NCBI GenBank assembly: GCA_949292795.1
Contig: CASFBR010000132.1
Location: 21,875 to 85,874 of the forward strand
DNA: 64,000 nucleotides
Reading direction: 5' to 3'
Source of the DNA: an uncultured Eubacteriales bacterium
Lineage (GTDB): Bacteria > Bacillota > Clostridia > Lachnospirales > Lachnospiraceae
In this document: positions 1 to 12,023 of the stretch, in pieces
Position numbering within the stretch: the stretch's first letter is position 1
Layout of the letters: each line of letters starts with the position of its first letter
Notes under the pieces: generated by a model
What the model saw: only the letters and a program-made list of their open reading frames with translations
What the model was told of the DNA's origin: nothing
The model's database searches: none
Made by a program: the position numbers and the translations under genes

Positions 1-9
1 TGGCTGCCA

Positions 10-306
10 TCAGGGAAGGATGATTTTCTTTTTGTTATCCTTTCCTTCTCTGTAAAGAACGATCTTTTTGCCGATGACCTGCACAACCTCTGAATGGGTT
101 CGCTCGGCCAGATAGGCGGCAATTTCACGGGGATCGTCGGTACAGTTTTGAAGGACAGATATTTTAATCAGCTCGCGCGCGCAAAGCGCTTCCTCAACAG
201 CTTTTGTAAGCTCCGGGGTCAAAGACGCTTTTCCGACCTGAAAAATAGGGTCGATTTTCATTGCGAGACTTTTTAAATAAGCGCGCTGCTTTGATGTTTT
301 TATCAT
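10..306 (-). CDS. yhbY: Ribosome assembly RNA-binding protein YhbY (CRM domain)
   Basis: 98 aa with QRAYLKSLA, IFQVGK and ELIKISVLQN motifs; directly downstream of obgE. Confidence 0.92.
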   Translation of the reverse strand: MIKTSKQRAYLKSLAMKIDPIFQVGKASLTPELTKAVEEALCARELIKISVLQNCTDDPREIAAYLAERTHSEVVQVIGKKIVLYREGKDNKKKIILP

Positions 307-333
307 TTTGCGACTCTCCTTTTATTCTGCCGG

Positions 334-1617
334 TTATTTATAATAATCAAACTGCAGGTTGTACATGCGTACGGTATCGCCCTCCTGAATACCGAGGGCT
401 TCCAGCTCATCTAAAATGCCGTTTTCTTTAAGGAATTTCTGGAAGAAATCAAACCCTTTTTCCGATTCAAGATTTGTGTAGCCAAGCATCCGGTCAATAC
501 GCGGGCCTTCTACAACAAAAACGCCGTCCTCATCCTTTTCTACCGTATAAGGCTCCTCAAAGCGGACATTTTCCGGGAAAAATTCTCTCTCAAAAACGGT
601 CGGTTCTTCGTTGATCTCATCAAGCAGTCCGCGCACATGATACAAAAGAGGCTTTAGTCCCTGACCGCTGACGGCAGAGATCGGGAATACTTTAATGCCC
701 TGAGGTTCAAACTCCTCCTTAAGCAGCGTGATGGCATCATCATGCTCACCGTCATAAAGTGCATCGATCTTGTTGGCCGCAATGACCTGCGGACGTGATA
801 AAAGCTGCGCGTTATAGGCTTTCAGCTCATTATTGATCGCATAAATATCCGCGATGGGATCACGCCCCTCCACGCCGGCGGCATCGACAATATGAATGAT
901 TACCTTTGTCCGTTCGATATGGCGCAAAAAATCATGGCCAAGGCCGACACCTTCGGAAGCGCCTTCGATGATTCCGGGAATATCCGCAATGACAAACCCC
1001 TTTCCGCCGTCAAGGTCTACAACGCCGAGATTGGGATTTAAGGTTGTGAAATGATAATTGGCAATTTTAGGCCGGGCATTGGTTACCCGGGATAAAAATG
1101 TGGATTTTCCCACATTCGGGAACCCAACAAGGCCGACATCGGCGATCACTTTTAATTCCAGCGTTACATTCAGCTCAAGCGATTTTTGTCCGGGCTGAGC
1201 GTATTTTGGAGCCTGCATGGTCGCTGTGGCGTAGTTCATATTGCCTTTGCCGCCGCGGCCGCCTTTTAAGATCACCTCGCGCTGATGCTCACCGGACATA
1301 TCGGCAATGACAAGACCGCTGTCAGCATCGCGGATGACAGTGCCCTCCGGGACTTTGATAATAAGGTCTGCGCCGTCTTTGCCATGGCAGCGGCGCTTTC
1401 CGCCGGGCTCGCCGTCACCGGCGCAGAATTTGCGGGTGTGGCGGAAATCCATGAGTGTATTCAGGCCGCGGTCAACTTCAAAAATTACATCGCCGCCCTT
1501 GCCGCCGTCACCGCCGTCCGGACCGCCGGCAGGCACATATAATTCTCTCCGGAAGCTGACATGACCGTCGCCGCCCTTGCCGGAACGTATATAAATTGTC
1601 GCTTTATCAACAAACAT
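334..1617 (-). CDS. obgE: GTPase ObgE/CgtA
   Basis: Gly-rich Obg fold, GFPNVGKST P-loop, NYHFTT, DIPG, NKID, C-terminal OCT domain. Confidence 0.98.
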   Translation of the reverse strand: MFVDKATIYIRSGKGGDGHVSFRRELYVPAGGPDGGDGGKGGDVIFEVDRGLNTLMDFRHTRKFCAGDGEPGGKRRCHGKDGADLIIKVPEGTVIRDADSGLVIADMSGEHQREVILKGGRGGKGNMNYATATMQAPKYAQPGQKSLELNVTLELKVIADVGLVGFPNVGKSTFLSRVTNARPKIANYHFTTLNPNLGVVDLDGGKGFVIADIPGIIEGASEGVGLGHDFLRHIERTKVIIHIVDAAGVEGRDPIADIYAINNELKAYNAQLLSRPQVIAANKIDALYDGEHDDAITLLKEEFEPQGIKVFPISAVSGQGLKPLLYHVRGLLDEINEEPTVFEREFFPENVRFEEPYTVEKDEDGVFVVEGPRIDRMLGYTNLESEKGFDFFQKFLKENGILDELEALGIQEGDTVRMYNLQFDYYK

Positions 1618-1647
1618 ATATTCACCTCCTGTATTTAAAATTATTTA

Positions 1648-1791
1648 GCTTCACTTCGTTTGCGCTCGCTAAGGCTCTTGCGGGAAAACATCGCTATGCT
1701 AAATTCAGCCGTCGCTGCCGCTTGGCTTCATTAAGCGCCGCGATGTGCGTTCGCACTAAACTCGCGCTTCACTTCGTTCGCGCTCGCTAAG
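1648..1791. repeat. GC-rich intergenic element bounded by a 26-bp direct repeat (REP-like)
   Basis: GCTTCACTTCGTT(T/C)GCGCTCGCTAAG at 1648-1673 and 1766-1791, one mismatch; small internal hairpins. Confidence 0.8.
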
Positions 1792-1800
1792 TGCTCACAG

Positions 1801-1840
1801 CAAAAACGACTTCAAATTTCCGAGAAAATCTGAAGCCGTT
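1801..1840 (-). terminator. Rho-independent terminator after rpmA
   Basis: Inverted repeat AACGACTTCA...TGAAGCCGTT (G-U pair on minus strand) followed by a T-run on minus. Confidence 0.7.
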
Positions 1841-1849
1841 TGGGTATTA

Positions 1850-2140
1850 TTATTCGTTCATAGCTACTGGATAGACAGAAGCCTGTTTTTTGTCTCTGCC
1901 TTTTCTTTCAAATCTTACAACGCCATCCACCAGTGCAAATAATGTATCGTCGCCGCCGCGTCCAACATTGTTACCTGGATGAATCTTAGTACCACGCTGT
2001 CTGTAAAGAATATTACCAGCTTTTACAAACTGTCCGTCCGCTCTCTTAGCTCCAAGTCTTTTAGATTCAGAGTCTCTGCCGTTCTTTGTGGAACCAACAC
2101 CTTTTTTATGAGCGAAAACCTGAAGGTTCATTTTTAACAT
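1850..2140 (-). CDS. rpmA: 50S ribosomal protein L27 with Prp-cleaved N-terminal extension
   Basis: [34 protein letters not shown]. Confidence 0.98.
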
Positions 2141-2143
2141 CGT

Positions 2144-2464
2144 CTACACCTCCTTGAATATAAGTCGAATATATTCATTTCCGTAATCTTTTTCGATTCC
2201 CTGTAAACCAAGAATCATGGATTTCATCAGCAATACAGAGCTGTCGGAAAGCGTATGATCAAAACGGCACTGGATGTATCCGTCTTTTTGTTTCACATGA
2301 AACGTGTCGGATGTGAACGATTCGATGGCATTGATCGTCGTGATTGTCAGCGCGGAAACGGCTGCACAGATTATATCAAAACCTTCGTCGGCATATCCGG
2401 CATGTCCCTTCGTCGTAAAGCCTGTAAAGCCTTTGTCATCCTTAAAAACTGTGACTGTTATCAT
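2144..2464 (-). CDS. prp: Ribosomal-processing cysteine protease Prp
   Basis: GHAGY (His) and DIICAAVS (Cys) catalytic motifs; between rplU and rpmA. Confidence 0.93.
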   Translation of the reverse strand: MITVTVFKDDKGFTGFTTKGHAGYADEGFDIICAAVSALTITTINAIESFTSDTFHVKQKDGYIQCRFDHTLSDSSVLLMKSMILGLQGIEKDYGNEYIRLIFKEV

Positions 2465-2484
2465 CTCCGTCTCAGACAGCCGGA

Positions 2485-2793
2485 TTAAGCGTTGATCTTA
2501 TCGATCTTAACTTCAGTATAAGCCTGTCTGTGACCGTTTTTCTTGTGATAACCAGTTTTTCTCTTGTACTTGTAAACAATGACTTTTTTGCCTTTAATAT
2601 CGCCGACAACAGTTGCAGCGACACTGGCACCTTCGACAGTTGGGTTGCCAACCTTGACATCGTCACCACTGACAACAAGAACCTGATCAAATACAACGGA
2701 TTCTCCGGCTGCTGCGCCGAGCTTTTCAACACGGATCACATCGCCTTCTGCTACTTTGTACTGTTTACCACCTGTTGCAATAATTGCGTACAT
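2485..2793 (-). CDS. rplU: 50S ribosomal protein L21
   Basis: [14 protein letters not shown]...KNGHRQAYT. Confidence 0.98.
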
Positions 2794-2811
2794 ATGGCAC
2801 CTCCTATGATC

Positions 2812-2878
2812 ATTACTCGCTAGTTACGGCGGCTGTCCGCAGACAGCACTTGAAAACCTCACTATGCGGCACACTCTT
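2812..2878 (-). ncRNA. Probable L21 leader (ribosomal protein autoregulatory leader)
   Basis: Structured 5' UTR between promoter and rplU RBS containing CCGCA, a hairpin CTGTC-TGCG-GACAG and GCGAGT; boundaries approximate. Confidence 0.55.
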
Positions 2879-2880
2879 GC

Positions 2881-2909
2881 ATGATACCATCAAAAGCTTC
2901 AAATGTCAA
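2881..2909 (-). promoter_or_regulatory. Sigma70-type promoter of the rplU operon
   Basis: TTGACA (2904-2909), 17 bp spacer, TG-n-TATCAT (2881-2886) on minus strand. Confidence 0.8.
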
Positions 2910-2962
2910 TAGCTGCGGCATAAATAATTTTGTAATTCTCCTGCTGCACCTCCATATCTGCT

Positions 2963-4582
2963 TTACTTGTCCGCAGCAGCCTCAAGAACCATCAGCCGGT
3001 CTTTTCTCTTGCCAAAATGTGAAACCGGCGTACAATCAATGACACCATTCTGAGGATATAGAAGCTTTGGTTCGCTGATCCTCTTTCCGTTTTCCGGGTC
3101 CATCCACCACATTTTATAGGCTGTGGCTGTCAGCCCACGGACATAAAACCCTGGAAATGATGTTTCGGAAAAATATCCCACGATTGTCGTCATCTGTGCA
3201 TCTGCGGTAAAGAAAATTTGTGTCCGGTTTGTTGCTTCCATAAACAGCGGTTTGGCGCCGGCCTGTTCAAAAGACAATGGTTTTAAACGATGCCATCCGA
3301 CAGACTCATAAAAATCTCTGAAAATCGTCAGCTGATTGGCCCCTGGTAGTTTAAGACCGTCCCACCAGGCCATGTCTCCCCATCCGATGCCTCCGACGCC
3401 GGCTTCCCACTGAAGCTCCCATACGCCGTTGCAGCCGTAAGTATAACCGCAGCCGCCGCTTTGCATGATAAGATAGGCTAACCGCCGCATCATTGCCGCC
3501 GGAATGATTCTGGAAGTATATTCGCCGGATGTGGCGCCTTCATAAGCGCCCTCACTTTCCAGGATTGGATAGCCCCTGTAAGTGTCCCGAAACCGGGCAT
3601 ACATGGACTGCCCCATGTCATAATCCCCATGTCCGGCCTGGCTCATGGCAAAGTCAAACCAGGATTCATTTCGGTAAATATCCGGGAAAGGACGGTCACA
3701 TGCCAGATGGACGGATTGAAGATTATTATAAGCATTCCACTTTTCACACTCTCTGGCTACAATCCCCCAGTCCCTTACATTCTCTTCTTTGCCGTCCCCA
3801 TATCCAGGAAGTTCTCCGGCCAGTGTCCAGGCAACCGGATAAGCGCCGTAACGCGCCGCAGTATATTTGGCCAGGCTTTTATAACGCCGGACACTGTTTT
3901 TGGCCATATCATAGCCCCAGGCATAGCCTACGGCAATTAAAAGCCCGCAATCAGCCAGATATTTCATTTTGGGGTCCACATTATTTTTAAATTCTTCAAG
4001 ATTGGGAACAAAGCCCTCCGGTGTGTCCTGCATCAGATCGATGCTCCGTCCAAAGCCACCGGTGCCGATCCCATCCCGGAAATTGCACTGATATACTGTA
4101 AACTTCTGCGCCACACGGTGGTCTACACACGCTTTAAACTGGCTTTCATATTCCGGACAGTTGGACGCATCAAATTTTTCTTCGGTTACAAACGTCCAAT
4201 GGGTATCACCAAGCCAGAAAAACGGCGTTTGATCTGCGTGTTCCAGATAATCCTTCGTATCACTGACTTTTAAAAAGCCATGTTTGTACATCGCAAGATT
4301 CCCTGAATATGGAATACATTCCACGGTGCCCTCCTGAATAAAATCCGGATTATTGTCCGTAGCTGCTGTTTTGTATTTCCATGTTCCGGTCATTGTCGGT
4401 GCAAAACGCACGACCCATGTTCCGTCGCCGTCCCAAAAGGCCAGAAGCTTTTTTTCTTGGCCGTCAGGGGCAGTAAAAAAGCCGAATACATCCACATCTT
4501 CAAATGGAGATTTGTAGTTTTTTGAGGTTTTCAGGTAAATGTCAACCGTGCGCCACTGCTCGGCTGTATATTTTGTATGCAT
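2963..4582 (-). CDS. DUF5060/DUF4038 apiosidase-like glycoside hydrolase (GH140-like), no signal peptide
   Basis: N-terminal FWDGDGTWVVRFAPT..GTWKY (DUF5060-like), PFFWLGDTHW, VAWTLAGE and ESEGAYEG motifs, C-terminal WWMDPENG beta domain. Confidence 0.75.
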   Translation of the reverse strand: MHTKYTAEQWRTVDIYLKTSKNYKSPFEDVDVFGFFTAPDGQEKKLLAFWDGDGTWVVRFAPTMTGTWKYKTAATDNNPDFIQEGTVECIPYSGNLAMYKHGFLKVSDTKDYLEHADQTPFFWLGDTHWTFVTEEKFDASNCPEYESQFKACVDHRVAQKFTVYQCNFRDGIGTGGFGRSIDLMQDTPEGFVPNLEEFKNNVDPKMKYLADCGLLIAVGYAWGYDMAKNSVRRYKSLAKYTAARYGAYPVAWTLAGELPGYGDGKEENVRDWGIVARECEKWNAYNNLQSVHLACDRPFPDIYRNESWFDFAMSQAGHGDYDMGQSMYARFRDTYRGYPILESEGAYEGATSGEYTSRIIPAAMMRRLAYLIMQSGGCGYTYGCNGVWELQWEAGVGGIGWGDMAWWDGLKLPGANQLTIFRDFYESVGWHRLKPLSFEQAGAKPLFMEATNRTQIFFTADAQMTTIVGYFSETSFPGFYVRGLTATAYKMWWMDPENGKRISEPKLLYPQNGVIDCTPVSHFGKRKDRLMVLEAAADK

Positions 4583-4634
4583 AAATTTATCCTTTTCCTT
4601 TCATTAATTTCGGATGGGCTTTTTATTTGTTTCT

Positions 4635-6113
4635 TTATGTCAGGATTCTTTCGACTGCCGCTTTCCACCCGCGGTATTTTTTCTCCCGCACAGCCTGTGC
4701 CATTACCGGCCGGTATGTTTTTTTCTCAAGCGTTTCAAATATTTGTTCATCATAAAGCCCAAGCCCGAGCCCTGCGGCATAAGCCGCACCGGTTCCCGAA
4801 AGCGTCTCACATTCCGGAACGAGGACATTTCCTCCTAAAAGATCGCTCTGAAACTGCATTAAATAACTGTTTTTTGTGGGGCCGCCGTCGGCCCGCAGCT
4901 CCTTTACTTCAATTTTGCAATCCTGGCTCATTGCACGGATGACATCGGTAATCTGATAGGCAATGCACTCAATACACGCCCGTATAATCTCCCCTTTGCC
5001 GGTAGTCCGTGTAATTCCAAGAAGAGCCCCTGTGGCCGCAGTGTCCCAGTAGGGCGCTCCAAGCCCGGTAAAGGAGGGAATAAAGTAAAGCGCATCGTCC
5101 TTTAAAGCGTCATGGCACCACCGGTTTGTTTCATCCGGGCTGTTAATAAGCCCCACTTCATCTTTAAGCCATGAAATCACCGCTCCTGTGTAATTAATAT
5201 TTCCTTCCAGAACATAATCAATTTTTCCGTGAAGCCCCCATGCCAGGGATGTGACAACACCGTGAGAAGACAGCATCGGCTTTTCCCCGATATTCATCAT
5301 AATGGATGAGCCTGTGCCATAGGTTGTCTTGATCATCCCCGGCTTTTGGCAGCCCTGCCCTAAAAGAGCGCCGTGGGAATCCCCCAAAACGCCGTGGATG
5401 GGAATGGGATGGTCAAGAAAGCCCTGAAAATCTGTGTTTCCAAAAGAGCTGTCCGAATCACAGACCTGGGGGAGATCCCCGGCGTCTATGCCAAAAGCCC
5501 GGCAGATTTCATCGTCCCAGCAAAGCTTAAAAATATTAAAAAGCTGCGTCCGGGAAGCGTTGGAATAGTCGGTCTTATATACCGCTCCACCAGTGAGCTG
5601 CCAGATCAGCCATGTGTCCACCGTTCCATAGCAAAGTCCATGGACCTTGGACAGCGCCTTCGCCCCGGGGATGTTCTCCAGAAGCCACGCCCATTTTGCC
5701 GCCGGAAAATAAGGTGATAATTTTAATCCCGTTTTCTCATAAATCTGGCCGGACATACCCTCTTTTTCCACACGGCGGCAGATCGTCTCCCCTCTTGAGC
5801 ACTGCCATACGACAGCCAGTCCCAGCGGCTTTCCGGTGGATTTTTCCCAGATCATCGACGTTTCCCGCTGATTACTGATCCCCGCTCCTGCAATATCGGC
5901 CATACGGATGCCGGACGCTTTGACAGCCATGCGGACAGCCTTAACTGTATTTTCACAGATTTCAGACGGGTCGTGGGAGACCCAGCCTTTTTCGTTAATG
6001 ATCTGGCGGTGAGAAATATCCCGGCGGCAGATCATCTTCCCCTTTCGGTCAAAGATCATCGCCTTTGTCCCCTGGGTACTCTGGTCAATAGAAATGATAT
6101 ATTTTTCACTCAT
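4635..6113 (-). CDS. FGGY-family carbohydrate kinase (GlpK-like; candidate apulose kinase)
   Basis: SIDQSTQGT, ISNQRETS, TDYSNASRT, GDSH, TYGTG, DGG motifs; start at 6113 overlaps upstream stop (ATGA). Confidence 0.88.
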   Translation of the reverse strand: MSEKYIISIDQSTQGTKAMIFDRKGKMICRRDISHRQIINEKGWVSHDPSEICENTVKAVRMAVKASGIRMADIAGAGISNQRETSMIWEKSTGKPLGLAVVWQCSRGETICRRVEKEGMSGQIYEKTGLKLSPYFPAAKWAWLLENIPGAKALSKVHGLCYGTVDTWLIWQLTGGAVYKTDYSNASRTQLFNIFKLCWDDEICRAFGIDAGDLPQVCDSDSSFGNTDFQGFLDHPIPIHGVLGDSHGALLGQGCQKPGMIKTTYGTGSSIMMNIGEKPMLSSHGVVTSLAWGLHGKIDYVLEGNINYTGAVISWLKDEVGLINSPDETNRWCHDALKDDALYFIPSFTGLGAPYWDTAATGALLGITRTTGKGEIIRACIECIAYQITDVIRAMSQDCKIEVKELRADGGPTKNSYLMQFQSDLLGGNVLVPECETLSGTGAAYAAGLGLGLYDEQIFETLEKKTYRPVMAQAVREKKYRGWKAAVERILT

Positions 6114-7066
6114 AGGTTCTCTCCAAAGCCGCATGTCTTTAGCAGTTCTTTTGCCTTTTTTGCAATCCCTGCGGCATTAAGCCCGTAATAATCAAAAACC
6201 TCCCGGGAAGTTCCCGTGATGACCGGCGCGTCAGGCAGTGCCATGTTCCAGACCATTTTCGGACATTTTGATCCGACCGCCTGAGCAACCATGGAACCGA
6301 GGCCGCCATAAGGGGAATGTTCCTCAACGGTCAGAATTGCCCGGACATTTTTTGCGGCTTTCAGGAGTGTTTCCTCATCCAGAGGCTTGATACAATACAT
6401 ATCGATCACAGTGGCTTCTATGCCATCCGCCTTGAGAATACCGGCCGCATCCATGGCCGGCCGCACCATCTCTCCGCAGGCGATAATAGCGACATCCTTT
6501 CCTTCACACAAAATGTTGGCCTTATCCATCTCAAAGGGCACATTGTCCGCAGCATAGACCGGCTCAACGGCATTGCGGCCCACACGGATATATGCCGGCT
6601 TATCGTCCTTTAAAAGTGCCTTTGTAAGTTTCTCTGTCTGGTAATGGTCACTGGGAATATACACCCGTATATTTGGGATTGCGCTCATGGCAGCAATATC
6701 CTGGGCGCTGTGATGGCTCATGCCAAGGGCACCGTAGCTGATACCCCCGCTGATACCAATAAGCTTGACATTCGTATCCGAATATGCCACATCGATTTTG
6801 CATTGTTCATAGCTGCGTGTGGATAAAAAGCACGCCGGTGATAGGGCATAGGCTTTTTTTCCACATTTGGCAAGTCCGGCGGCGATACTTACAAGATTTT
6901 GTTCCGCAATGCCAGTCTCTACAAACTGTCCCGGAAATGCATCCGCAAATGGCGTAAAGGAAGCGCTGCCCCTGGAGTCGCTGCACAAAGCAACAATATT
7001 TTTATCGGTACCCGCCTGATCCATTAAAACCTGGCAGATTGCCTGTTTATTGGCAATATTACGCAT
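6110..7066 (-). CDS. Transketolase-like C-terminal subunit (candidate AptB)
   Basis: GIAEQN, HHSAQD, YIRVGR and EEHSPYGGLG motifs. Confidence 0.9.
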   Translation of the reverse strand: MRNIANKQAICQVLMDQAGTDKNIVALCSDSRGSASFTPFADAFPGQFVETGIAEQNLVSIAAGLAKCGKKAYALSPACFLSTRSYEQCKIDVAYSDTNVKLIGISGGISYGALGMSHHSAQDIAAMSAIPNIRVYIPSDHYQTEKLTKALLKDDKPAYIRVGRNAVEPVYAADNVPFEMDKANILCEGKDVAIIACGEMVRPAMDAAGILKADGIEATVIDMYCIKPLDEETLLKAAKNVRAILTVEEHSPYGGLGSMVAQAVGSKCPKMVWNMALPDAPVITGTSREVFDYYGLNAAGIAKKAKELLKTCGFGENL

Positions 7067-7889
7067 TTTCCAATCCCTCCTGTGCGCGTTTTAGATCGCT
7101 CATGATCTGTTCGTATTCTTCCTTTGTGGGAACCTTATGGTGCCAGGAAGCCTTATTTTCCATGACCGATGAGCCTTTTCCCTTGACCGTATTGGCAATG
7201 AGAAGGGTCGGTTGGCCTTTTACTGTTTTTGCCTCCTCAAAAGCGCTGTGAAGCTGGTCGATGTCATTGCCGTCGGCCACATCGATCACATGCCAGCCAA
7301 AGCTTTTAAAGCGCTGGCAAAGATCATCCTGCCCCATAATATCTTCCGTATTTCCTGAAATCTGGAGATGGTTGCGGTCCACTACGGCACAGAGGTTATC
7401 GAGCTTATACTGGTGAGCCGCCATCGCCCCTTCCCACACAGAGCCTTCCGCCAGCTCGCCGTCACCCATGACCACATAAACTCTTCGGTCATTTTCATCC
7501 ATCTTAGAGGCCAGAGCCATTCCGACGCTCACCGGAAGTCCGTGGCCCAAAGAACCGGAGTTCATCTCGATTCCCGGGAGCTTATTATTCGGATGTCCAA
7601 TATATGGAGAGCCAAATTTGCCAAACCGTTTTAAAAGGTCCTCTTTATCCAGAAAGCCCTTTTGCGCCAGCACCGCGTAGTAGGCTTCCATGGAATGTCC
7701 CTTGCTCAGAATGAAAAGATCACGTTTTTCATCTTCCGCCATTTGGGGCGATACATTCATCTGATCAAAATACAGCTCTGTCAAAATTTCCATGACGCTC
7801 ATATCTCCGCCGATATGGCCGCCGTTTCCGGCACATATAAGCTCCACAGCGTCCTGTCTGAGCTTATAAGCCAATGCTTTTAAATTCAT
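7059..7889 (-). CDS. Transketolase-like N-terminal subunit (candidate AptA)
   Basis: GHIGG, LSKGH, GSLGHG and ThDP motif GDGELAEGSVWE...N. Confidence 0.9.
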   Translation of the reverse strand: MNLKALAYKLRQDAVELICAGNGGHIGGDMSVMEILTELYFDQMNVSPQMAEDEKRDLFILSKGHSMEAYYAVLAQKGFLDKEDLLKRFGKFGSPYIGHPNNKLPGIEMNSGSLGHGLPVSVGMALASKMDENDRRVYVVMGDGELAEGSVWEGAMAAHQYKLDNLCAVVDRNHLQISGNTEDIMGQDDLCQRFKSFGWHVIDVADGNDIDQLHSAFEEAKTVKGQPTLLIANTVKGKGSSVMENKASWHHKVPTKEEYEQIMSDLKRAQEGLENA

Positions 7890-7904
7890 TTTTCTTTGCC
7901 TCCT

Positions 7905-9305
7905 TTATTCGCCGCGAAGATAAGCCCTGACATCTTCTTCAACAGGATCATAAAAGTCCGGCTTAATTCCCATATATTTGCATGCTTCATAAAGGACGGG
8001 CACTATATCCTTATGAATACCGACGCAGTGATGGATATAAGGCCCTTCCACGATTTTTGCTTCAAGGCGCTTAATATTTTCCACCTCGACCCAAAGGTAT
8101 GTCCCCATGCCTTTAGGGCCGTCCACACCTCTGGCTTTGCCAAGAAGCAGGGAATACTGGCCGTTATCCCCGTCAAAGCGGCATAAGGTTACTTCCCCGT
8201 GTCTGGCCTCCGCGGTCAGGCTTCCCGGATGGTCAAAGGCCAGAGGGTAGGTAAGAACCGGCTTTTCCCCGGCCACAGAAGGCGGCCATGGACCGCAGTG
8301 CTGTAACAGCTCGCCGTTTTCAATATCCGGATGACGGATCGTCCAGTCTGCAAAAAAGCTCCGTTTTTCTCCCATGGCGGCAGCTTCCGCTAAAAGAGCA
8401 GTAATGGCGCCGTGGATGTCGGTCTCACAGACGACCGGGATTCCCTTTTCGTTTAATATGGCGTTGGCTGCGCAGGGCATAATGCCGATTTCTGTCTGAA
8501 GGGCATTCCAGCACTGGATTGCTGCCGCCTGACAGCCGTACTTGTGAATCAAATCTTCCATAGCCAAAGCCAGCGCCGCGACCATGCGGGTGTTTGCCTC
8601 TTTGATCTGAACGGTCATTGTTTCGCGGATGTAGGCAAGCATGTTGTTCATACGCGTTTCATCGGCCCGGGCCGACTTGATCGCCTCGGTCAGCTCTGTC
8701 ATGGGAACCGGGGATAACTGAATATTAAATTTTTCCAGCAGCTCCCCCTCGTTGCACATTGTTGACCAGAAATCAAACGGTCTCGTGGAAATCTGAAGAA
8801 TACGGATATTTTTAAAGGTTTTCACCACATTGCAAACGGCCAGAAAATCTTTCACCCCCCGTTCAAACACCGGATCATTCAGACGGCAGTTGGTCAGATA
8901 GGTAAAAGGCACCTGGAAGCGGCGCAAAACCTTTCCCGTGGCAAAAAGTCCGCACTGGGTATCCCTAAGGCGAACGCCGTTCTCATCGGGCCGCTCGTCA
9001 AGCGGCCCCCATAAAAGCACCGGAAGGCCCAGTTTTTTTGCCAGCCTGGCGCAGACATATTCTGTGCCGAAATTACAGTGGGCAAGGAGCAGCCCGTCCA
9101 CGCCCTCGCTTTGAAATTTCCGGGCAATCTTATCCACATCCCTGTCGTCGTAGAGCAGCCCCTCCTCATTAATATCTGTAATATCCGCAAAATCCACGCC
9201 AAGCTCTTCAAGGCGCCGGGCTGTCAATTTGCGAAATTTTAAGGCGTCCGGCGCGCTGAAAATACTCCGGCGTGTGGGCGCATATCCCAATTTTATTTTG
9301 TTCAT
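7905..9305 (-). CDS. L-fucose/L-arabinose isomerase-fold sugar isomerase
   Basis: CNFGTE, AIQCW, VCETDIHG and HHCVG motifs typical of FucI-like proteins. Confidence 0.82.
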   Translation of the reverse strand: MNKIKLGYAPTRRSIFSAPDALKFRKLTARRLEELGVDFADITDINEEGLLYDDRDVDKIARKFQSEGVDGLLLAHCNFGTEYVCARLAKKLGLPVLLWGPLDERPDENGVRLRDTQCGLFATGKVLRRFQVPFTYLTNCRLNDPVFERGVKDFLAVCNVVKTFKNIRILQISTRPFDFWSTMCNEGELLEKFNIQLSPVPMTELTEAIKSARADETRMNNMLAYIRETMTVQIKEANTRMVAALALAMEDLIHKYGCQAAAIQCWNALQTEIGIMPCAANAILNEKGIPVVCETDIHGAITALLAEAAAMGEKRSFFADWTIRHPDIENGELLQHCGPWPPSVAGEKPVLTYPLAFDHPGSLTAEARHGEVTLCRFDGDNGQYSLLLGKARGVDGPKGMGTYLWVEVENIKRLEAKIVEGPYIHHCVGIHKDIVPVLYEACKYMGIKPDFYDPVEEDVRAYLRGE

Positions 9306-9353
9306 AGCATCTCCTCCATTTTCGGCTTATTTTTAATGCAGCAATCGCGGAAA

Positions 9354-9408
9354 ATGTCGCTTATGCGACCCGCCGCAGCATAGAATCCTGCACAGCAGGA
9401 TTTTTTAT
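9354..9408 (-). repeat. Copy of a dispersed palindromic repeat also present near 26602-26655
   Basis: Exact 25-mer CTGCGGCGGGTCGCATAAGCGACAT (minus 9354-9378, plus 26627-26651) with similar flanks. Confidence 0.85.
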
Positions 9409-9489
9409 GTTCTGGAATCAGTATAGCCAGGCTTTAACTTAATTTCATTAATTTATTAAGGGAATTTTACTTAATTTTCAACTTAATTA

Positions 9490-9518
9490 TTGAAAAAATA
9501 AGCCGGATCATTCATAAT
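9490..9518 (+). promoter_or_regulatory. Promoter of the LacI gene
   Basis: TTGAAA, 17 bp spacer, CATAAT. Confidence 0.55.
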
Positions 9519-9541
9519 AAGATCAATACGATAAAGGGGAA

Positions 9542-10567
9542 ATGACGATGAGCATTACTGCAAAAGAACTGGCAAAGAAGCTAAATATCTCTCCCGCTGC
9601 CGTCTCCATGGCGTTAAATCATAAACCCGGGGTCAGCACAGCCACCCGTCAAAAAATTCTGGACGCTGCCCAGAGATACGGCTATGATTTTACCCGGATT
9701 TCTCAGAAAATGACGGCTTCAGGAGCAGTTTATCTGATTATATATAAGAAGCATGGCGCCGTTGTGGCGGACACGCCCTTTTTTTCTCAGCTCTCTGAAG
9801 GAATCACGCTTGGATGCAAAAAAGAAAATTTTAACCTGAAGGTGAGTTACATCTATGAAAATGAAGAAAATGTAGAAAGACAGATTGAAGATTTGAGGAC
9901 GTCGGACTGCTGCGGTATCATCCTTCTTGGGACTGAGATGACCGCAGCCGACATCCGTCCTTTTTTAAAACTGGATATTCCGGTCGTCCTGCTGGATACC
10001 TACTTTGAGGAGCTGGCCTGTGACAGTATTCTGATTAACAATATTCAGGGCGCCTATATTGCCGCCAGCTATCTCATAAAAAAATGTCCCGGCCAGCCCG
10101 GCTACCTCCACTCCTCTTACCCGATCCAGAATTTTTCCCAGCGGGGGGATGGCTTTTACAATGCGATCAGGGCCGCGGGACTTCCGGTGTCAAAGTCTGT
10201 GGTTCATCGCCTGACCCCATCGGTGGAGGGCGCTTACGCGGATATGTGCGAAATTTTAAAAAGAGGGGAACGCCTGGCCTCATCCTACTTTGCCGACAAT
10301 GATCTGATTGCCGCCGGGGCAATAAAAGCTTTTAAAGCGTTTCATTACCGCATTCCCGAGGACATCTCCGTGACCGGCTTTGACGATCTTCCTATATCCG
10401 GCGTCATTGAACCGAACCTGACAACGATTAATGTGCCGAAAAAATATATGGGGGAAATGGCCGCCCAAAGGATCATCGCGCTCATTAAAAATCCTCATCA
10501 GCCTCCGGTCAAGACAGAAATTTCCACAACACTGATCAGACGTCGGAGCGTACGGACAAGAGCATAA
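9542..10567 (+). CDS. LacI-family transcriptional regulator, divergent from the sugar operon
   Basis: HTH ITAKELAKKLNISPAAVSMALN...GVS; FADNDLIAAG, PEDISVTGFDD, LTTI. Confidence 0.95.
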   Translation: MTMSITAKELAKKLNISPAAVSMALNHKPGVSTATRQKILDAAQRYGYDFTRISQKMTASGAVYLIIYKKHGAVVADTPFFSQLSEGITLGCKKENFNLKVSYIYENEENVERQIEDLRTSDCCGIILLGTEMTAADIRPFLKLDIPVVLLDTYFEELACDSILINNIQGAYIAASYLIKKCPGQPGYLHSSYPIQNFSQRGDGFYNAIRAAGLPVSKSVVHRLTPSVEGAYADMCEILKRGERLASSYFADNDLIAAGAIKAFKAFHYRIPEDISVTGFDDLPISGVIEPNLTTINVPKKYMGEMAAQRIIALIKNPHQPPVKTEISTTLIRRRSVRTRA

Positions 10568-10585
10568 CACACGATTACCGGCATT

Positions 10586-11029
10586 TTATTTCTGGATTTT
10601 CTTCACAAAGCAGACCGTCTCCTCTTTTTCAGAAAAGCCATTTTTCCTGTAAAAATGGAAGGCGGGCATACGGCGGTCTGTGAGTAAGAGGACATAGGAA
10701 ACACCCTGATCAGCCAGCCTTTGCGTGATTGCCTCCATAAATTCGGAACCGATTCCTTTTTGCTGAACCTGTGGATGGAGTCCAAATTCATCAATCCAGT
10801 ATTCCGTACCTTCATACCAGTGGATGATCCGTCCCAGCGCTATCCCTACAAGGCGTTCATCCTGAAAAAGTCCAAAAGCCAGCGCATCCGGGTGCCCGAT
10901 CAGCTGAGCCACATAAGCGTGAAGCTGTTCATCGGTCCAATGATCATTCCATGGTTCTCCGGAAAAAATGTCAACCATGAGTTTTTTTATCGCTTCTATT
11001 TGATCAATATGTAACATGCATATTTCCAT
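10586..11029 (-). CDS. GNAT-family N-acetyltransferase
   Basis: Motif A FGLHPQVQQKGIG; AFHFYRKNGF. Confidence 0.88.
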   Translation of the reverse strand: MEICMLHIDQIEAIKKLMVDIFSGEPWNDHWTDEQLHAYVAQLIGHPDALAFGLFQDERLVGIALGRIIHWYEGTEYWIDEFGLHPQVQQKGIGSEFMEAITQRLADQGVSYVLLLTDRRMPAFHFYRKNGFSEKEETVCFVKKIQK

Positions 11030-11198
11030 ACGTTATATCCTTCCTCTTATTTATAAAAATTATTTCTGCGGGCAAGGACCCCAAAGCGGACACGCCGGCA
11101 TGTCCATTTGGAGGCTGCCGCGAGGGCCTAATCCCCCCCCGATGCTTGCATCGCTGCTGGTTTTGATGTCCCGTATGCTTGCATCGGGGGCTTTGACT

Positions 11199-11741
11199 TT
11201 ATAAAGCGCTGCCTTTTTCCGGAATAAAAAAAGCGGTCATATCGACGTTTTCCAGCGTCAGCAGACGGACTTTTTTTTCAATCCCGCCGGCATATCCGGT
11301 CAGACTTCCATGAGCTCCCACAACGCGGTGGCAGGGAACGATGATCGATACAGGATTATGCCCCACAGCCTGCCCGACTGCCTGGGCCGACATATGGGAC
11401 AGGCCTCTGTTTTTTGCAAGCTGCGCCGCAATGGCACCATAGGTTGTCGTATGTCCATATGGAATTGTGCAGAGCATTTGCCATACTTCCTTTTGAAAAT
11501 CCGTCCCTATAAAGTGAAGGGGGATCGGGCAATGGGGGGCTTTTCCGGAAAAATAGATGTCCAGCCATTGCTTCGCCTTTTTTAAAACAGGAGTTTCTTT
11601 TTCTGCATGTTCTTCATGCCTGTCATTCATGTGGGATGCAAAATATTTCTGCCCCTCAAACCACAGACCCGTCAGTCCAATATCATCTGCGGCCAGAAAA
11701 ATCTGTCCTAAAGGTGAATAGTAACAGGTTGTATATTGCAT
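11199..11741 (-). CDS. ogt: Methylated-DNA-protein-cysteine methyltransferase (Ogt)
   Basis: GTDFQKEVW, AVGQA, PCHRV active site; GGAGG RBS upstream of ATG 11741. Confidence 0.93.
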   Translation of the reverse strand: MQYTTCYYSPLGQIFLAADDIGLTGLWFEGQKYFASHMNDRHEEHAEKETPVLKKAKQWLDIYFSGKAPHCPIPLHFIGTDFQKEVWQMLCTIPYGHTTTYGAIAAQLAKNRGLSHMSAQAVGQAVGHNPVSIIVPCHRVVGAHGSLTGYAGGIEKKVRLLTLENVDMTAFFIPEKGSAL

Positions 11742-11943
11742 ATAATCCCTCCAATTATTATCTATATTTATTTTGCTGTATTTGTTTTTCGCTTTGTGCA
11801 ATAATATATCTTTGTACAGCAAATATATCTTTCGTAATTAAACTATCTTTCACAATCGACATATTTGTAGACAATGCACATCTGCCGTTTATTACTATTG
11901 CCATTTTCTTTATAGATTTGAGGAACGGCTTCGTAATTTGCTG

Positions 11944-12023
11944 TCTATATTTTAGTATCTATATTTAGTATTTATATTTAGTGTTTATATTTAGTATTTA
12001 TATTTACTATCTATATTTGGCTA
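11944..12023. repeat. AT-rich tandem repeat, about 6 copies of a 13-bp unit
   Basis: Consensus T(C/T)TATATTTAGTA repeated head to tail with 1-3 differences per copy. Confidence 0.85.

What the first reader, a model, noticed from the sequence alone, without database searches (positions are those of the whole stretch)
2963..10567. Candidate branched-sugar (D-apiose) catabolic operon with a FucI-fold isomerase and its own apiosidase-like enzyme
Seen: a tightly coupled minus-strand operon (isomerase, TK-N, TK-C, FGGY kinase, DUF4038 hydrolase, with overlapping stop/start codons) divergent from a LacI gene. Known: the D-apiose transketolase route (Carter et al. 2018, Nat Chem Biol) is isomerase, then apulose kinase (FGGY), then split apulose-4-P transketolase AptA/B. 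DUF4038 is the apiosidase-like (GH140-related) domain acting on rhamnogalacturonan-II. Inference: a complete release-and-catabolise module for apiose or a related branched or rare sugar in a gut clostridium, with a FucI-fold enzyme doing the isomerisation. Automated annotation would read it as glycerol kinase plus transketolase. I cannot confirm whether this exact gene combination has already been characterised.
Basis: partly seen in the sequence, partly recalled or inferred. Interest (0 to 1): 0.78.

Follow-up and report, generated by a model that had tools for sequence, protein, structure and literature searches.

The report
Gut Lachnospiraceae D-apiose utilisation operon variant
This is a real six-gene unit that most likely lets a chicken-gut Lachnospiraceae bacterium cut the plant sugar D-apiose off glycosides and feed it into central metabolism by the already known transketolase route, using divergent versions of the known enzymes.

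Summary
A minus-strand operon (isomerase, split transketolase N and C, FGGY kinase, DUF5060+PF13204 hydrolase) lies divergent from a LacI gene and is inserted between housekeeping genes.

The apiose reading is well supported by comparative genomics:
- The four-gene core is syntenic in 70 of 80 species genomes from several phyla.
- In 18 of them it sits beside an ABC transporter whose binding protein is about 57% identical to that of an enterobacterial D-apiose cluster.
- The transketolase shares with AptB the loss of canonical active-site His and Asp.
- The kinase shares with AplK the loss of two glycerol-pocket residues.
- A hybrid operon (L095) combines an enterobacterial-type isomerase with window-type transketolase, kinase and hydrolase.

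Two corrections apply. A FucI-like isomerase is not new, because a Rahnella apiose cluster also carries one; the window's enzyme belongs to a separate clade (25% identity). The kinase branches nearer GlpK than enterobacterial AplK.

The hydrolase has the GH140 fold but is divergent, so its apiosidase activity is inferred. No transporter is present. No activity was tested.

Verdict: a new variant of a known pathway, of moderate interest.

The parts
2963..4582 (-). Cytoplasmic GH140-like glycoside hydrolase (DUF5060 N-terminal beta-sandwich, PF13204 barrel, C-terminal beta-sandwich). Proposed beta-D-apiofuranosidase.
   Evidence: Pfam PF13204 183 bits and PF16586 67 bits. PDB sequence hits 8t9w 'Apiosidase' 4e-17 and BT1012 2e-16. 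AF2 pLDDT 91. Foldseek 4n0r, 5msy and 8t9w, target-normalised TM 0.75-0.80. No signal peptide is visible in the N-terminus.
4635..6113 (-). GlpK-like FGGY kinase, proposed apulose kinase. The likely start is Met8 at 6113; the longest ORF begins at 6134.
6110..7066 (-). Split transketolase C-terminal subunit (AptB-like), with Ser/Tyr/Leu in place of canonical His461/Leu466/Asp469.
7059..7889 (-). Split transketolase N-terminal (ThDP-binding) subunit, AptA-like.
7905..9305 (-). Short FucI/AraA-fold aldose-ketose isomerase, proposed D-apiose isomerase. It belongs to a clade distinct from the enterobacterial-type isomerase.
9420..9448 (-). Promoter-like site for the operon (ATGAAA-17-TATACT).
   Evidence: This is a consensus match only.
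9471..9486 (-). Candidate LacI operator TTAAGTTGAAAATTAA.
   Evidence: Motif TTAA[GT]T-N4-A[AT]TTAA occurs in 10 of 23 LacI-isomerase intergenic regions, gives only 10 hits in 1.3 Mb of loci, and is unique in the window.
9382..9404 (.). Ten-pair hairpin in the operon's 5' leader (terminator-like when read on the + strand). Role unknown.
   Evidence: No Rfam family matched.
9542..10567 (+). LacI-family regulator, divergently transcribed.
   Evidence: A LacI homolog lies within 9 kb of the isomerase in 58 of 80 loci.

Best explanation
The locus is a LacI-controlled operon for using D-apiose by the non-oxidative transketolase route.

Proposed steps, all inferred from sequence and context:
1. An apioside enters through a transporter encoded elsewhere.
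2. The cytoplasmic GH140-like hydrolase releases D-apiose.
3. The FucI/AraA-fold isomerase converts D-apiose to apulose.
4. The GlpK-derived kinase phosphorylates one hydroxymethyl arm of apulose to give apulose-4-phosphate. Its glycerol pocket is opened by Q246S and F270S.
5. The split transketolase moves the C1-C2 glycolaldehyde unit onto glyceraldehyde-3-phosphate, giving xylulose-5-phosphate and dihydroxyacetone phosphate. It has lost the His and Asp that read an ordinary sugar phosphate.
6. The LacI repressor probably binds TTAAGTTGAAAATTAA between the divergent promoters.

Shown here: gene content, synteny, folds, and the shared active-site substitutions. Inferred here: every substrate and every reaction.
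For: Reference cluster. The E. coli SE15 apiose cluster, with aplK, aptA and aptB, is named in PMC13001218, and strains carrying this cluster grow on D-apiose. The window proteins are 36%, 47% and 37% identical to AplK, AptA and AptB.

Kinase.
- AplK is itself GlpK-like (495 bits against TIGR01311), as is the window kinase (566 bits, below the 590 cut-off).
- Only 9 positions are conserved and identical in 57 window-type kinases and 18 AplKs yet differ from GlpK. Two of them are the glycerol-pocket residues Q246S and F270S.

Transketolase. All 45 window-type TK-C subunits and 3 AptB have Tyr and Leu where generic transketolases have Leu466 and Asp469, and have lost His461. This includes comparison with the C. 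hydrogenoformans split enzyme and human TK.

Synteny. The four-gene core is kept in 70 of 80 genomes.

Transporter. In 18 genomes the core adjoins SBP-DUF2291-ATPase-permease genes. The binding protein is a median 57% identical to the Rahnella apiose-cluster binding protein against 28% to RbsB. The permease is 53% identical against 37% to RbsC.

Isomerase. The Rahnella cluster carries a PF02952 isomerase. Hybrid operon L095 has that isomerase type (44% identical) together with window-type TK, kinase, LacI and hydrolase. The two isomerase clades are therefore interchangeable.

Hydrolase. PF13204 enzymes of three subfamilies recur at the operon. The Mediterraneibacter one matches the GH140 apiosidase 8t9w at 1e-80.

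Folds. Isomerase TM 0.85 to L-arabinose isomerase. Hydrolase target-normalised TM 0.78-0.80 to BT1012 and 8t9w.
Against: - No enzyme activity or growth was tested here.
- In NJ trees the kinase clade is sister to GlpK in 52-56 of 60 and 93 of 100 bootstraps, not to AplK. It passes NCBIfam's GlpK subfamily cut-off.
- Overall, the transketolase subunits are as close to a generic split transketolase (254 and 213 bits) as to AptA and AptB.
- The isomerase is only 25% identical to the enterobacterial-type isomerase. Relatives below 50% identity are not linked to a transketolase.
- Close homologs of the window's hydrolase also sit next to GH43 genes without the transketolase module.
- No importer lies nearby.
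- That Rahnella's PF02952 protein equals the characterised ApsI is inferred from synteny. Carter et al. 2018 could not be read.
- Metatranscriptome support is negligible.
Confidence: 0.72

Rival explanations
1. The core module works by the same logic (isomerase, kinase, transketolase cleavage) but on a different rare sugar, not D-apiose. The hydrolase would release that sugar.
For: - The kinase and the isomerase are not orthologs of enterobacterial AplK and the enterobacterial-type isomerase.
- The transketolase keeps Arg520, which AptB has lost.
- In Selenomonadaceae loci the transporter is followed by RbsD-like and PfkB ribokinase-like genes.
Against: - Binding proteins are 57% identical to the Rahnella apiose-cluster protein and only 28% to RbsB.
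- Hybrid operon L095 mixes the enterobacterial-type isomerase with window-type partners.
- The Tyr/Leu signature of AptB and the Q246S/F270S signature of AplK are shared.
- PF13204 enzymes recur, and the only activity met for that family here is apiosidase.
Confidence: 0.13
2. The genes are ordinary housekeeping-type paralogs, as automatic annotation says: a glycerol kinase, a general pentose-phosphate transketolase and an arabinose/fucose-type isomerase. They would handle common pentoses or glycerol released from plant glycosides.
For: - NF000756 GlpK subfamily cut-off is passed, 569 against 498 bits.
- The kinase is 43% identical to E. coli GlpK and sister to GlpK in trees.
- No other transketolase or glpK lies in the 64-kb window.
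Against: - The GlpK equivalog cut-off is missed, 566 against 590 bits.
- Pocket residues F270 and Q246 are replaced in all 57 members.
- Transketolase His461 and Asp469, invariant in generic enzymes, are replaced in all 45 members.
- There is no L-ribulose-5-P epimerase for an arabinose route.
- The isomerase is only 14-16% identical to AraA and FucI structures.
Confidence: 0.05
3. The core is an apiose module, but the window's hydrolase is not an apiosidase. It would be another furanosidase or side-chain hydrolase of plant glycans that merely landed at the operon's end.
For: - It is only 26-27% identical to the GH140-like enzymes of the Mediterraneibacter and C. scindens operons.
- E is 4e-17 to proven or named apiosidases.
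- Homologs at 56-70% identity sit beside GH43 genes with no transketolase module.
- A 52-nt gap separates it from the kinase gene.
Against: - It has the same strand and no intervening promoter or terminator match of note.
- A 52%-identical homolog lies inside hybrid apiose operon L095.
- Three PF13204 subfamilies independently occupy this operon position.
- It has the GH140 fold.
Confidence: 0.3
4. The locus is a sulfoquinovose transketolase or transaldolase-type pathway, because the isomerase's only NCBIfam hit is the sulfoquinovose isomerase SftI.
For: NF048012 SftI hit at E 3e-29. The isomerase is adjacent to a split transketolase.
Against: - The score is 102 against a cut-off of 700. The Rahnella apiose-cluster isomerase scores the same model equally (116 bits).
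- The operon includes a kinase, which a sulfo-transketolase route does not need (own knowledge of that pathway).
- No GH31 sulfoquinovosidase, sulfoacetaldehyde reductase or exporter is present in the locus.
Confidence: 0.02

Closest known systems
D-apiose transketolase pathway of Enterobacterales (ApsI/AplK/AptAB; Carter et al. 2018, MetaCyc PWY-8089; E. coli SE15 ECSF_RS02670-02715 and Rahnella cluster L089)
   Same: - Same enzyme classes: short FucI-like isomerase, GlpK-like FGGY kinase, split transketolase.
- Shared AptB-type Tyr/Leu active-site motif.
- Shared AplK-type Q246S/F270S pocket.
- In relatives, the same SBP-DUF2291-ATPase-permease transporter type.
   Different: - The isomerase is a separate clade (25% identity).
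- The kinase clade branches with GlpK rather than AplK.
- Gene order is isomerase first.
- The regulator is LacI, not SorC or DeoR.
- The transketolase keeps Arg520.
- In the window there is a cytoplasmic GH140-like hydrolase and no transporter.
GH140 beta-D-apiosidases (BT1012 of Bacteroides thetaiotaomicron, PDB 5msy; mangrove-metagenome GH140, PDB 8t9w)
   Same: PF13204 barrel plus C-terminal beta-sandwich. Target-normalised TM 0.78-0.80. Glu/Asp-bearing motifs conserved within the family alignments.
   Different: - 19-22% identity.
- Extra N-terminal DUF5060 domain, as in the uncharacterised BVU_0362 (4n0r).
- No signal peptide, whereas BT1012 is periplasmic and cleaves Apif-beta1,2-GalA of RG-II.
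Glycerol kinase GlpK
   Same: 43% identity. Sister clade in trees. Catalytic Asp245 and the Arg83/Glu84/Trp103 motif are kept.
   Different: Q246S and F270S in every member. Below the TIGR01311 equivalog cut-off. Always encoded with an isomerase and a split transketolase.
Sulfoquinovose isomerase SftI (NCBIfam NF048012)
   Same: Same short FucI-like family acting on a free aldose.
   Different: 102 bits against a cut-off of 700. Different pathway partners.

Membership tests
D-apiose transketolase pathway (ApsI-AplK-AptAB) | Split transketolase with the AptB-type active site | tested here: met
   All 45 window-type TK-C and 3 AptB have Tyr/Leu at TktA 466/469 and lack His461. The generic split TK (6yaj) and human TK have the H...GEDG motif. 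Overall identity to AptA and AptB is 47% and 37%.
D-apiose transketolase pathway (ApsI-AplK-AptAB) | Kinase orthologous to AplK | tested here: not met
   In the NJ tree with XylB as outgroup, window-type plus GlpK are monophyletic in 93 of 100 and 52-56 of 60 bootstraps. Window-type plus AplK are monophyletic in 5 or fewer. The tree has only 2 GlpKs and 1 outgroup.
D-apiose transketolase pathway (ApsI-AplK-AptAB) | Kinase pocket adapted like AplK (works like AplK) | tested here: met
   Q246S and F270S (GDSH and GTGSS motifs) are shared by 57 window-type kinases and 18 AplKs against GDQQ and GTGCF/GTGSF in GlpK.
D-apiose transketolase pathway (ApsI-AplK-AptAB) | Isomerase of the enterobacterial apiose-cluster type | tested here: not met
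   25% identity to the Rahnella cluster isomerase, and a separate clade among family representatives. Functional interchangeability is supported by hybrid operon L095.
D-apiose transketolase pathway (ApsI-AplK-AptAB) | Co-location with a D-apiose-type ABC transporter | tested here: inconclusive
   Absent from the window. Present beside the same core in 18 of 80 genomes, with the binding protein 57% identical to Rahnella's.
D-apiose transketolase pathway (ApsI-AplK-AptAB) | Enzyme activities and growth on D-apiose | not testable with these tools
   Requires wet-lab assays.
CAZy GH140 (apiosidase) | PF13204 catalytic domain above the Pfam gathering score | tested here: met
   183 bits against 26.5.
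CAZy GH140 (apiosidase) | Fold shared with BT1012 and 8t9w | tested here: met
   Foldseek E 1e-25, target-normalised TM 0.78-0.80.
CAZy GH140 (apiosidase) | Beta-D-apiofuranosidase activity | not testable with these tools
   Only 19-22% identity to proven or named enzymes. No dbCAN on hand.
Glycerol kinase GlpK (TIGR01311 equivalog) | Score at or above the equivalog cut-off, with an intact glycerol pocket | tested here: not met
   566 bits against 590. F270 and Q246 are replaced.
Canonical transketolase | Conserved His461 and Asp469 (E. coli TktA numbering) | tested here: not met
   Ser and Leu at these positions in all 45 members.
FucI/AraA-fold sugar isomerases | Three-domain AraA/FucI fold with conserved acidic and His residues | tested here: met
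   AF2 pLDDT 96. TM 0.85 to AraA and 0.78 to FucI. Nearly invariant E294, D296, H336, H425 and H426.
Sulfoquinovose isomerase SftI | NF048012 equivalog cut-off | tested here: not met
   102 bits against 700.

The most novel reading that the evidence does not exclude
Gut anaerobes (Lachnospiraceae, Blautia, Collinsella, Selenomonadaceae, Sphaerochaeta and others) share a horizontally spread apiose module assembled independently of the enterobacterial one. It would draw on a GlpK-lineage kinase and a separate FucI-like isomerase clade, with convergent pocket changes. The module is plugged into cytoplasmic GH140-like hydrolases, and possibly nucleoside-hydrolase-fold hydrolases, together with beta-glucoside uptake cassettes. 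It would then be a so-far unrecognised route by which gut bacteria de-apiosylate dietary apiosyl-glucosides such as apiin.
Probability: 0.35. Interest if true: 0.62.

Novelty: new variant of a known kind. Interest (0 to 1): 0.45.

Why it matters
Apiose occurs in pectin (RG-II) and in more than a thousand plant glycosides. Which gut bacteria consume it, and which remove it from dietary flavonoid apiosides, is poorly mapped.

This work gives three things:
- A sequence signature for finding the pathway in Firmicutes, Actinobacteria and Spirochaetes, where annotation now says 'glycerol kinase' and 'transketolase'. The signature is the window-type isomerase, a kinase with GDSH and GTGSS motifs, and a TK-C with the ISYG-x-L-x3-HH motif.
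- Cultured strains to test, including Catenibacillus scindens, Mediterraneibacter, Blautia, Faecalicatena and Collinsella.
- Candidate intracellular apiosidases.

It does not change the known chemistry of the pathway.

Tried and rejected
- Carter et al. 2018 could not be opened by DOI, PMC id or PubMed id. The identity of the characterised ApsI therefore had to be inferred from the Rahnella cluster and from the remark in PMC13001218 that E. coli lacks apsI.
- Literature searches for apulose, apiosidase/GH140, 8T9W, the gene names, and apiose with gut found nothing on this operon type.
- The PDB sequence search with the isomerase found nothing; only the fold search did.
- The 34-sequence isomerase alignment was too diverse for the locus search, so a 9-sequence alignment was used.
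- Rfam found no RNA family in 1-12000.
- A palindrome search of the intergenic region gave only a weak AT-rich pair. The operator candidate came from comparing orthologous regions.
- Chicken-gut metatranscriptome contigs gave only depth 2-3 fragments on the operon, which is not usable as expression evidence.
- The neighbour of a 45%-identical isomerase relative (L099) matched none of the reference proteins.
- Rejected readings: true glycerol kinase, generic transketolase, and the sulfoquinovose pathway. See the rivals.

Full report
**1. What is there**

Window 2963-10567 holds five co-directional minus-strand genes and one divergent regulator. Pfam and NCBIfam give:
- a 466-aa protein with only a sub-threshold Fucose_iso_C hit and a weak match to sulfoquinovose isomerase SftI (102 bits, cut-off 700);
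- a split transketolase (Transketolase_N, 276 aa; Transket_pyr + Transketolase_C, 318 aa);
- an FGGY kinase that passes the GlpK subfamily model (569 against 498 bits) but misses the GlpK equivalog model (566 against 590);
- a 539-aa DUF5060 + PF13204 'apiosidase-like' protein;
- a LacI-family regulator.

TK-N and TK-C overlap by 8 nt. TK-C and the kinase overlap as ATGA if the kinase starts at Met8, which has a GGAGAG ribosome-binding site and matches the C. scindens ortholog's start. The other two junctions are gaps of 15 and 52 nt.

The unit lies between housekeeping genes (rplU-prp-rpmA-obg on one side; GNAT, ogt, PAP2 and RNase G on the other). It has no transporter.

The closest named relative is Catenibacillus scindens (isomerase 92%, TK-N 93%, LacI 90%). 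Near-identical DNA occurs in chicken-gut metagenomes.

**2. The reference pathway**

Carter et al. 2018 could not be read. PMC13001218 gives the E. coli SE15 apiose cluster with aplK, aptA and aptB by locus tag. It shows that E. coli and E. fergusonii strains carrying this cluster grow on D-apiose. It also states that the E. coli cluster lacks apsI and has two oxidoreductases instead.

I fetched that cluster (L005). Through AplK homologs I also fetched a Serratia cluster with the same oxidoreductase pair (L088) and a Rahnella cluster (L089). The Rahnella cluster reads SBP-DUF2291-ATPase-permease, SorC regulator, TK-N, TK-C, a 472-aa PF02952 Fucose_iso_C protein, then AplK.

So an enterobacterial apiose cluster already uses a FucI-like isomerase. 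A FucI-fold isomerase is not a novelty of the window.

**3. Protein-by-protein comparison**

*Isomerase*
- The AlphaFold model has pLDDT 96. Its best PDB matches are L-arabinose isomerases (TM 0.85), then L-fucose isomerases (TM 0.78), at 12-16% identity.
- It is 25% identical over its full length to the Rahnella isomerase (E 2e-40). Both score alike on the SftI model (102 and 116 bits).
- The family is small: 255 representative clusters at E < 1e-30. The enterobacterial type is a different clade.
- A 68%-identical relative is linked to a transketolase. A 47%-identical one is not.

*Kinase*
- It is 36-37% identical to AplK and 43% to E. coli GlpK.
- AplK is itself GlpK-like.
- In NJ trees rooted with XylB, the window-type clade, including the L095 kinase, is sister to GlpK in 93 of 100 and 52-56 of 60 bootstraps under three distance corrections. 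It is almost never sister to AplK.
- Only nine positions are conserved and identical in 57 window-type kinases and 18 AplKs yet differ from GlpK. Two of these are Q246S and F270S. From the GlpK structural literature (own knowledge), these positions line the glycerol site.
- Apulose is in effect a glycerol bearing a glycoloyl group on C2. Opening that wall is therefore what an apulose kinase would need. This step is inference.

*Transketolase*
- Overall similarity to AptA and AptB (236 and 190 bits) is about the same as to the generic split enzyme of Carboxydothermus (254 and 213 bits).
- The active-site stretch is different. It reads H-x4-L-G-E-D-G-x2-H-Q in E. coli TktA, and has the same His and G-E-D-G core in the Carboxydothermus split enzyme and human TK. 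It reads S-G-G-I-S-Y-G-A-L-G-M-S-H-H in the window, with S...Y...L in all 45 window-type sequences, and N-A-G-A-S-Y-G-P-L-A-S-T-H-H in AptB.
- Loss of His461 and Asp469 fits a donor whose C3 is quaternary. This is inference.
- Arg520 is kept in the window type and lost in AptB.

*Hydrolase*
- PDB sequence hits are weak: 8t9w 4e-17 and BT1012 2e-16.
- The model (pLDDT 91) superposes on BT1012 and on the mangrove GH140 apiosidase 8t9w at target-normalised TM 0.78-0.80. It superposes with its N-terminal domain on the uncharacterised BVU_0362.
- BT1012 is the periplasmic beta-D-apiosidase of RG-II breakdown.
- The window protein shows no signal peptide.

**4. Comparative genomics**

A scan of one genome per species found 80 loci with an isomerase 75-87% identical. 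They come from Lachnospiraceae, Oscillospiraceae, Faecalibacterium, Monoglobus, Selenomonadaceae, Pectinatus, Anaerovibrio, Collinsella, Sphaerochaeta and a Paludibacteraceae bin. Seventy have TK-N, TK-C and the kinase alongside. Seven of the rest are truncated contigs.

The isomerase (median 77% identity) is far better conserved than TK-N (65%), TK-C (70%) or the kinase (56%). Together with the spread across phyla, this suggests horizontal transfer.

Accessory genes vary:
1. Eighteen loci have an SBP-DUF2291-ATPase-permease transporter. Its binding protein is a median 57% identical to Rahnella's, 43% to E. coli SE15's and 28% to RbsB. The permease is 53% identical against 37% to RbsC.
2. Ten loci, plus the window, Mediterraneibacter and C. 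scindens, have PF13204 enzymes of three subfamilies that are mutually 25-27% identical. The Mediterraneibacter enzyme matches 8t9w at 1e-80.
3. Blautia and Schaedlerella loci continue with AraC, an MFS transporter, a nucleoside-hydrolase-like gene, ROK and GH1.
4. Collinsella and a Eubacteriaceae bin add PTS EIIBC and GH1.

The theme is free apiose in some genomes and small apiosyl-glucosides in others.

Homologs of the window's own hydrolase are rare (620 proteins). At 56-70% identity they sit beside GH43 genes without the module.

At 52% identity, one lies inside L095. That operon reads LacI, TK-N, TK-C, kinase, isomerase of the enterobacterial type (44% to Rahnella, 26% to the window), window-type hydrolase, and a second DUF5060-PF13204-DUF5605 hydrolase. 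This hybrid is the strongest single argument that the two isomerase clades do the same job, and that the window-type hydrolase belongs to apiose metabolism.

**5. Regulation**

The motif TTAA[GT]T-N4-A[AT]TTAA occurs once in the window, at 9471-9486 between promoter-like sites for the two divergent units. It occurs in 10 of 23 orthologous LacI-isomerase spacers, including every one whose LacI is at least 62% identical. It gives only 10 hits in 1.3 Mb of fetched loci. It is a good operator candidate.

A ten-pair hairpin in the leader (9382-9404) is unexplained. Rfam found nothing.

**6. Verdict**

The apiose interpretation is the best-supported reading of the core (about 0.7), and the apiosidase assignment is plausible (about 0.5).

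The pathway chemistry is known. What is new here:
- a distinct isomerase clade;
- a kinase clade that is not orthologous to enterobacterial AplK but carries the same pocket changes;
- LacI control;
- fusion of the module to cytoplasmic GH140-like enzymes in gut anaerobes.

I could not establish whether Carter et al. already treated the Firmicutes version. PMC13001218 cites them for apiose degradation by gut Bacteroides and Clostridia. That lowers the novelty I can claim.

Noticed in passing
L004:16392-17327; also L008, L013, L016, L018, L030, L037, L041: A nucleoside-hydrolase-like gene (PF01156 IU_nuc_hydro, N-terminal HTDCKNEADD motif) recurs next to the apiose module in 8 loci. In Blautia and Schaedlerella it is part of an AraC / MFS transporter / NH / ROK / GH1 cassette with no PF13204 gene. 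It could be a furanosidase for apiosides built on a nucleoside-hydrolase fold.
   Followed up: partly
L095:2916-12203: Hybrid operon on a 3.2-Mb contig: an enterobacterial-type isomerase with window-type transketolase, kinase and LacI, plus two different DUF5060-PF13204 hydrolases in tandem.
   Followed up: yes
L025, L034, L039, L042, L045, L051, L066 (downstream of the ABC transporter): In Selenomonadaceae, Pectinatus and some Lachnospiraceae, the apiose-type transporter is followed by an RbsD/FucU-like gene (42% to E. coli RbsD), a LacI gene and a PfkB kinase (38% to RbsK). Their role beside an apiose module is unclear.
   Followed up: partly
L008-L087: Across phyla the isomerase stays 75-87% identical, while TK-N, TK-C and the kinase drop to 43-50%. 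This points to unusually strong constraint on the isomerase, and to horizontal spread of the module among anaerobes of animal guts and the rumen.
   Followed up: partly
window 9382-9404: Ten-pair GC-containing hairpin followed by a T-run on the + strand. It lies inside the operon's 5' leader and upstream of the lacI promoter-like site. It matches no Rfam family, and its function is unknown.
   Followed up: no
window 2881-2909 (-): Near-consensus extended -10 promoter (TTGACA-17-TG-TATCAT) just after the hydrolase stop codon, in front of rplU-prp-rpmA-obg. No terminator-like site separates the operon from it.
   Followed up: no
L004:14753-16366: In C. scindens a 99-aa ORF and an EstA_Ig_like/alpha-beta-hydrolase esterase are inserted between the kinase and the hydrolases. 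An EstA_Ig_like gene also lies near a homolog of the window's hydrolase in L094.
   Followed up: no
L070; L072-L078: In Collinsella and a Eubacteriaceae bin the module is flanked by PTS EIIBC and GH1 genes. This suggests phosphotransferase uptake of apiosyl-beta-glucosides.
   Followed up: partly
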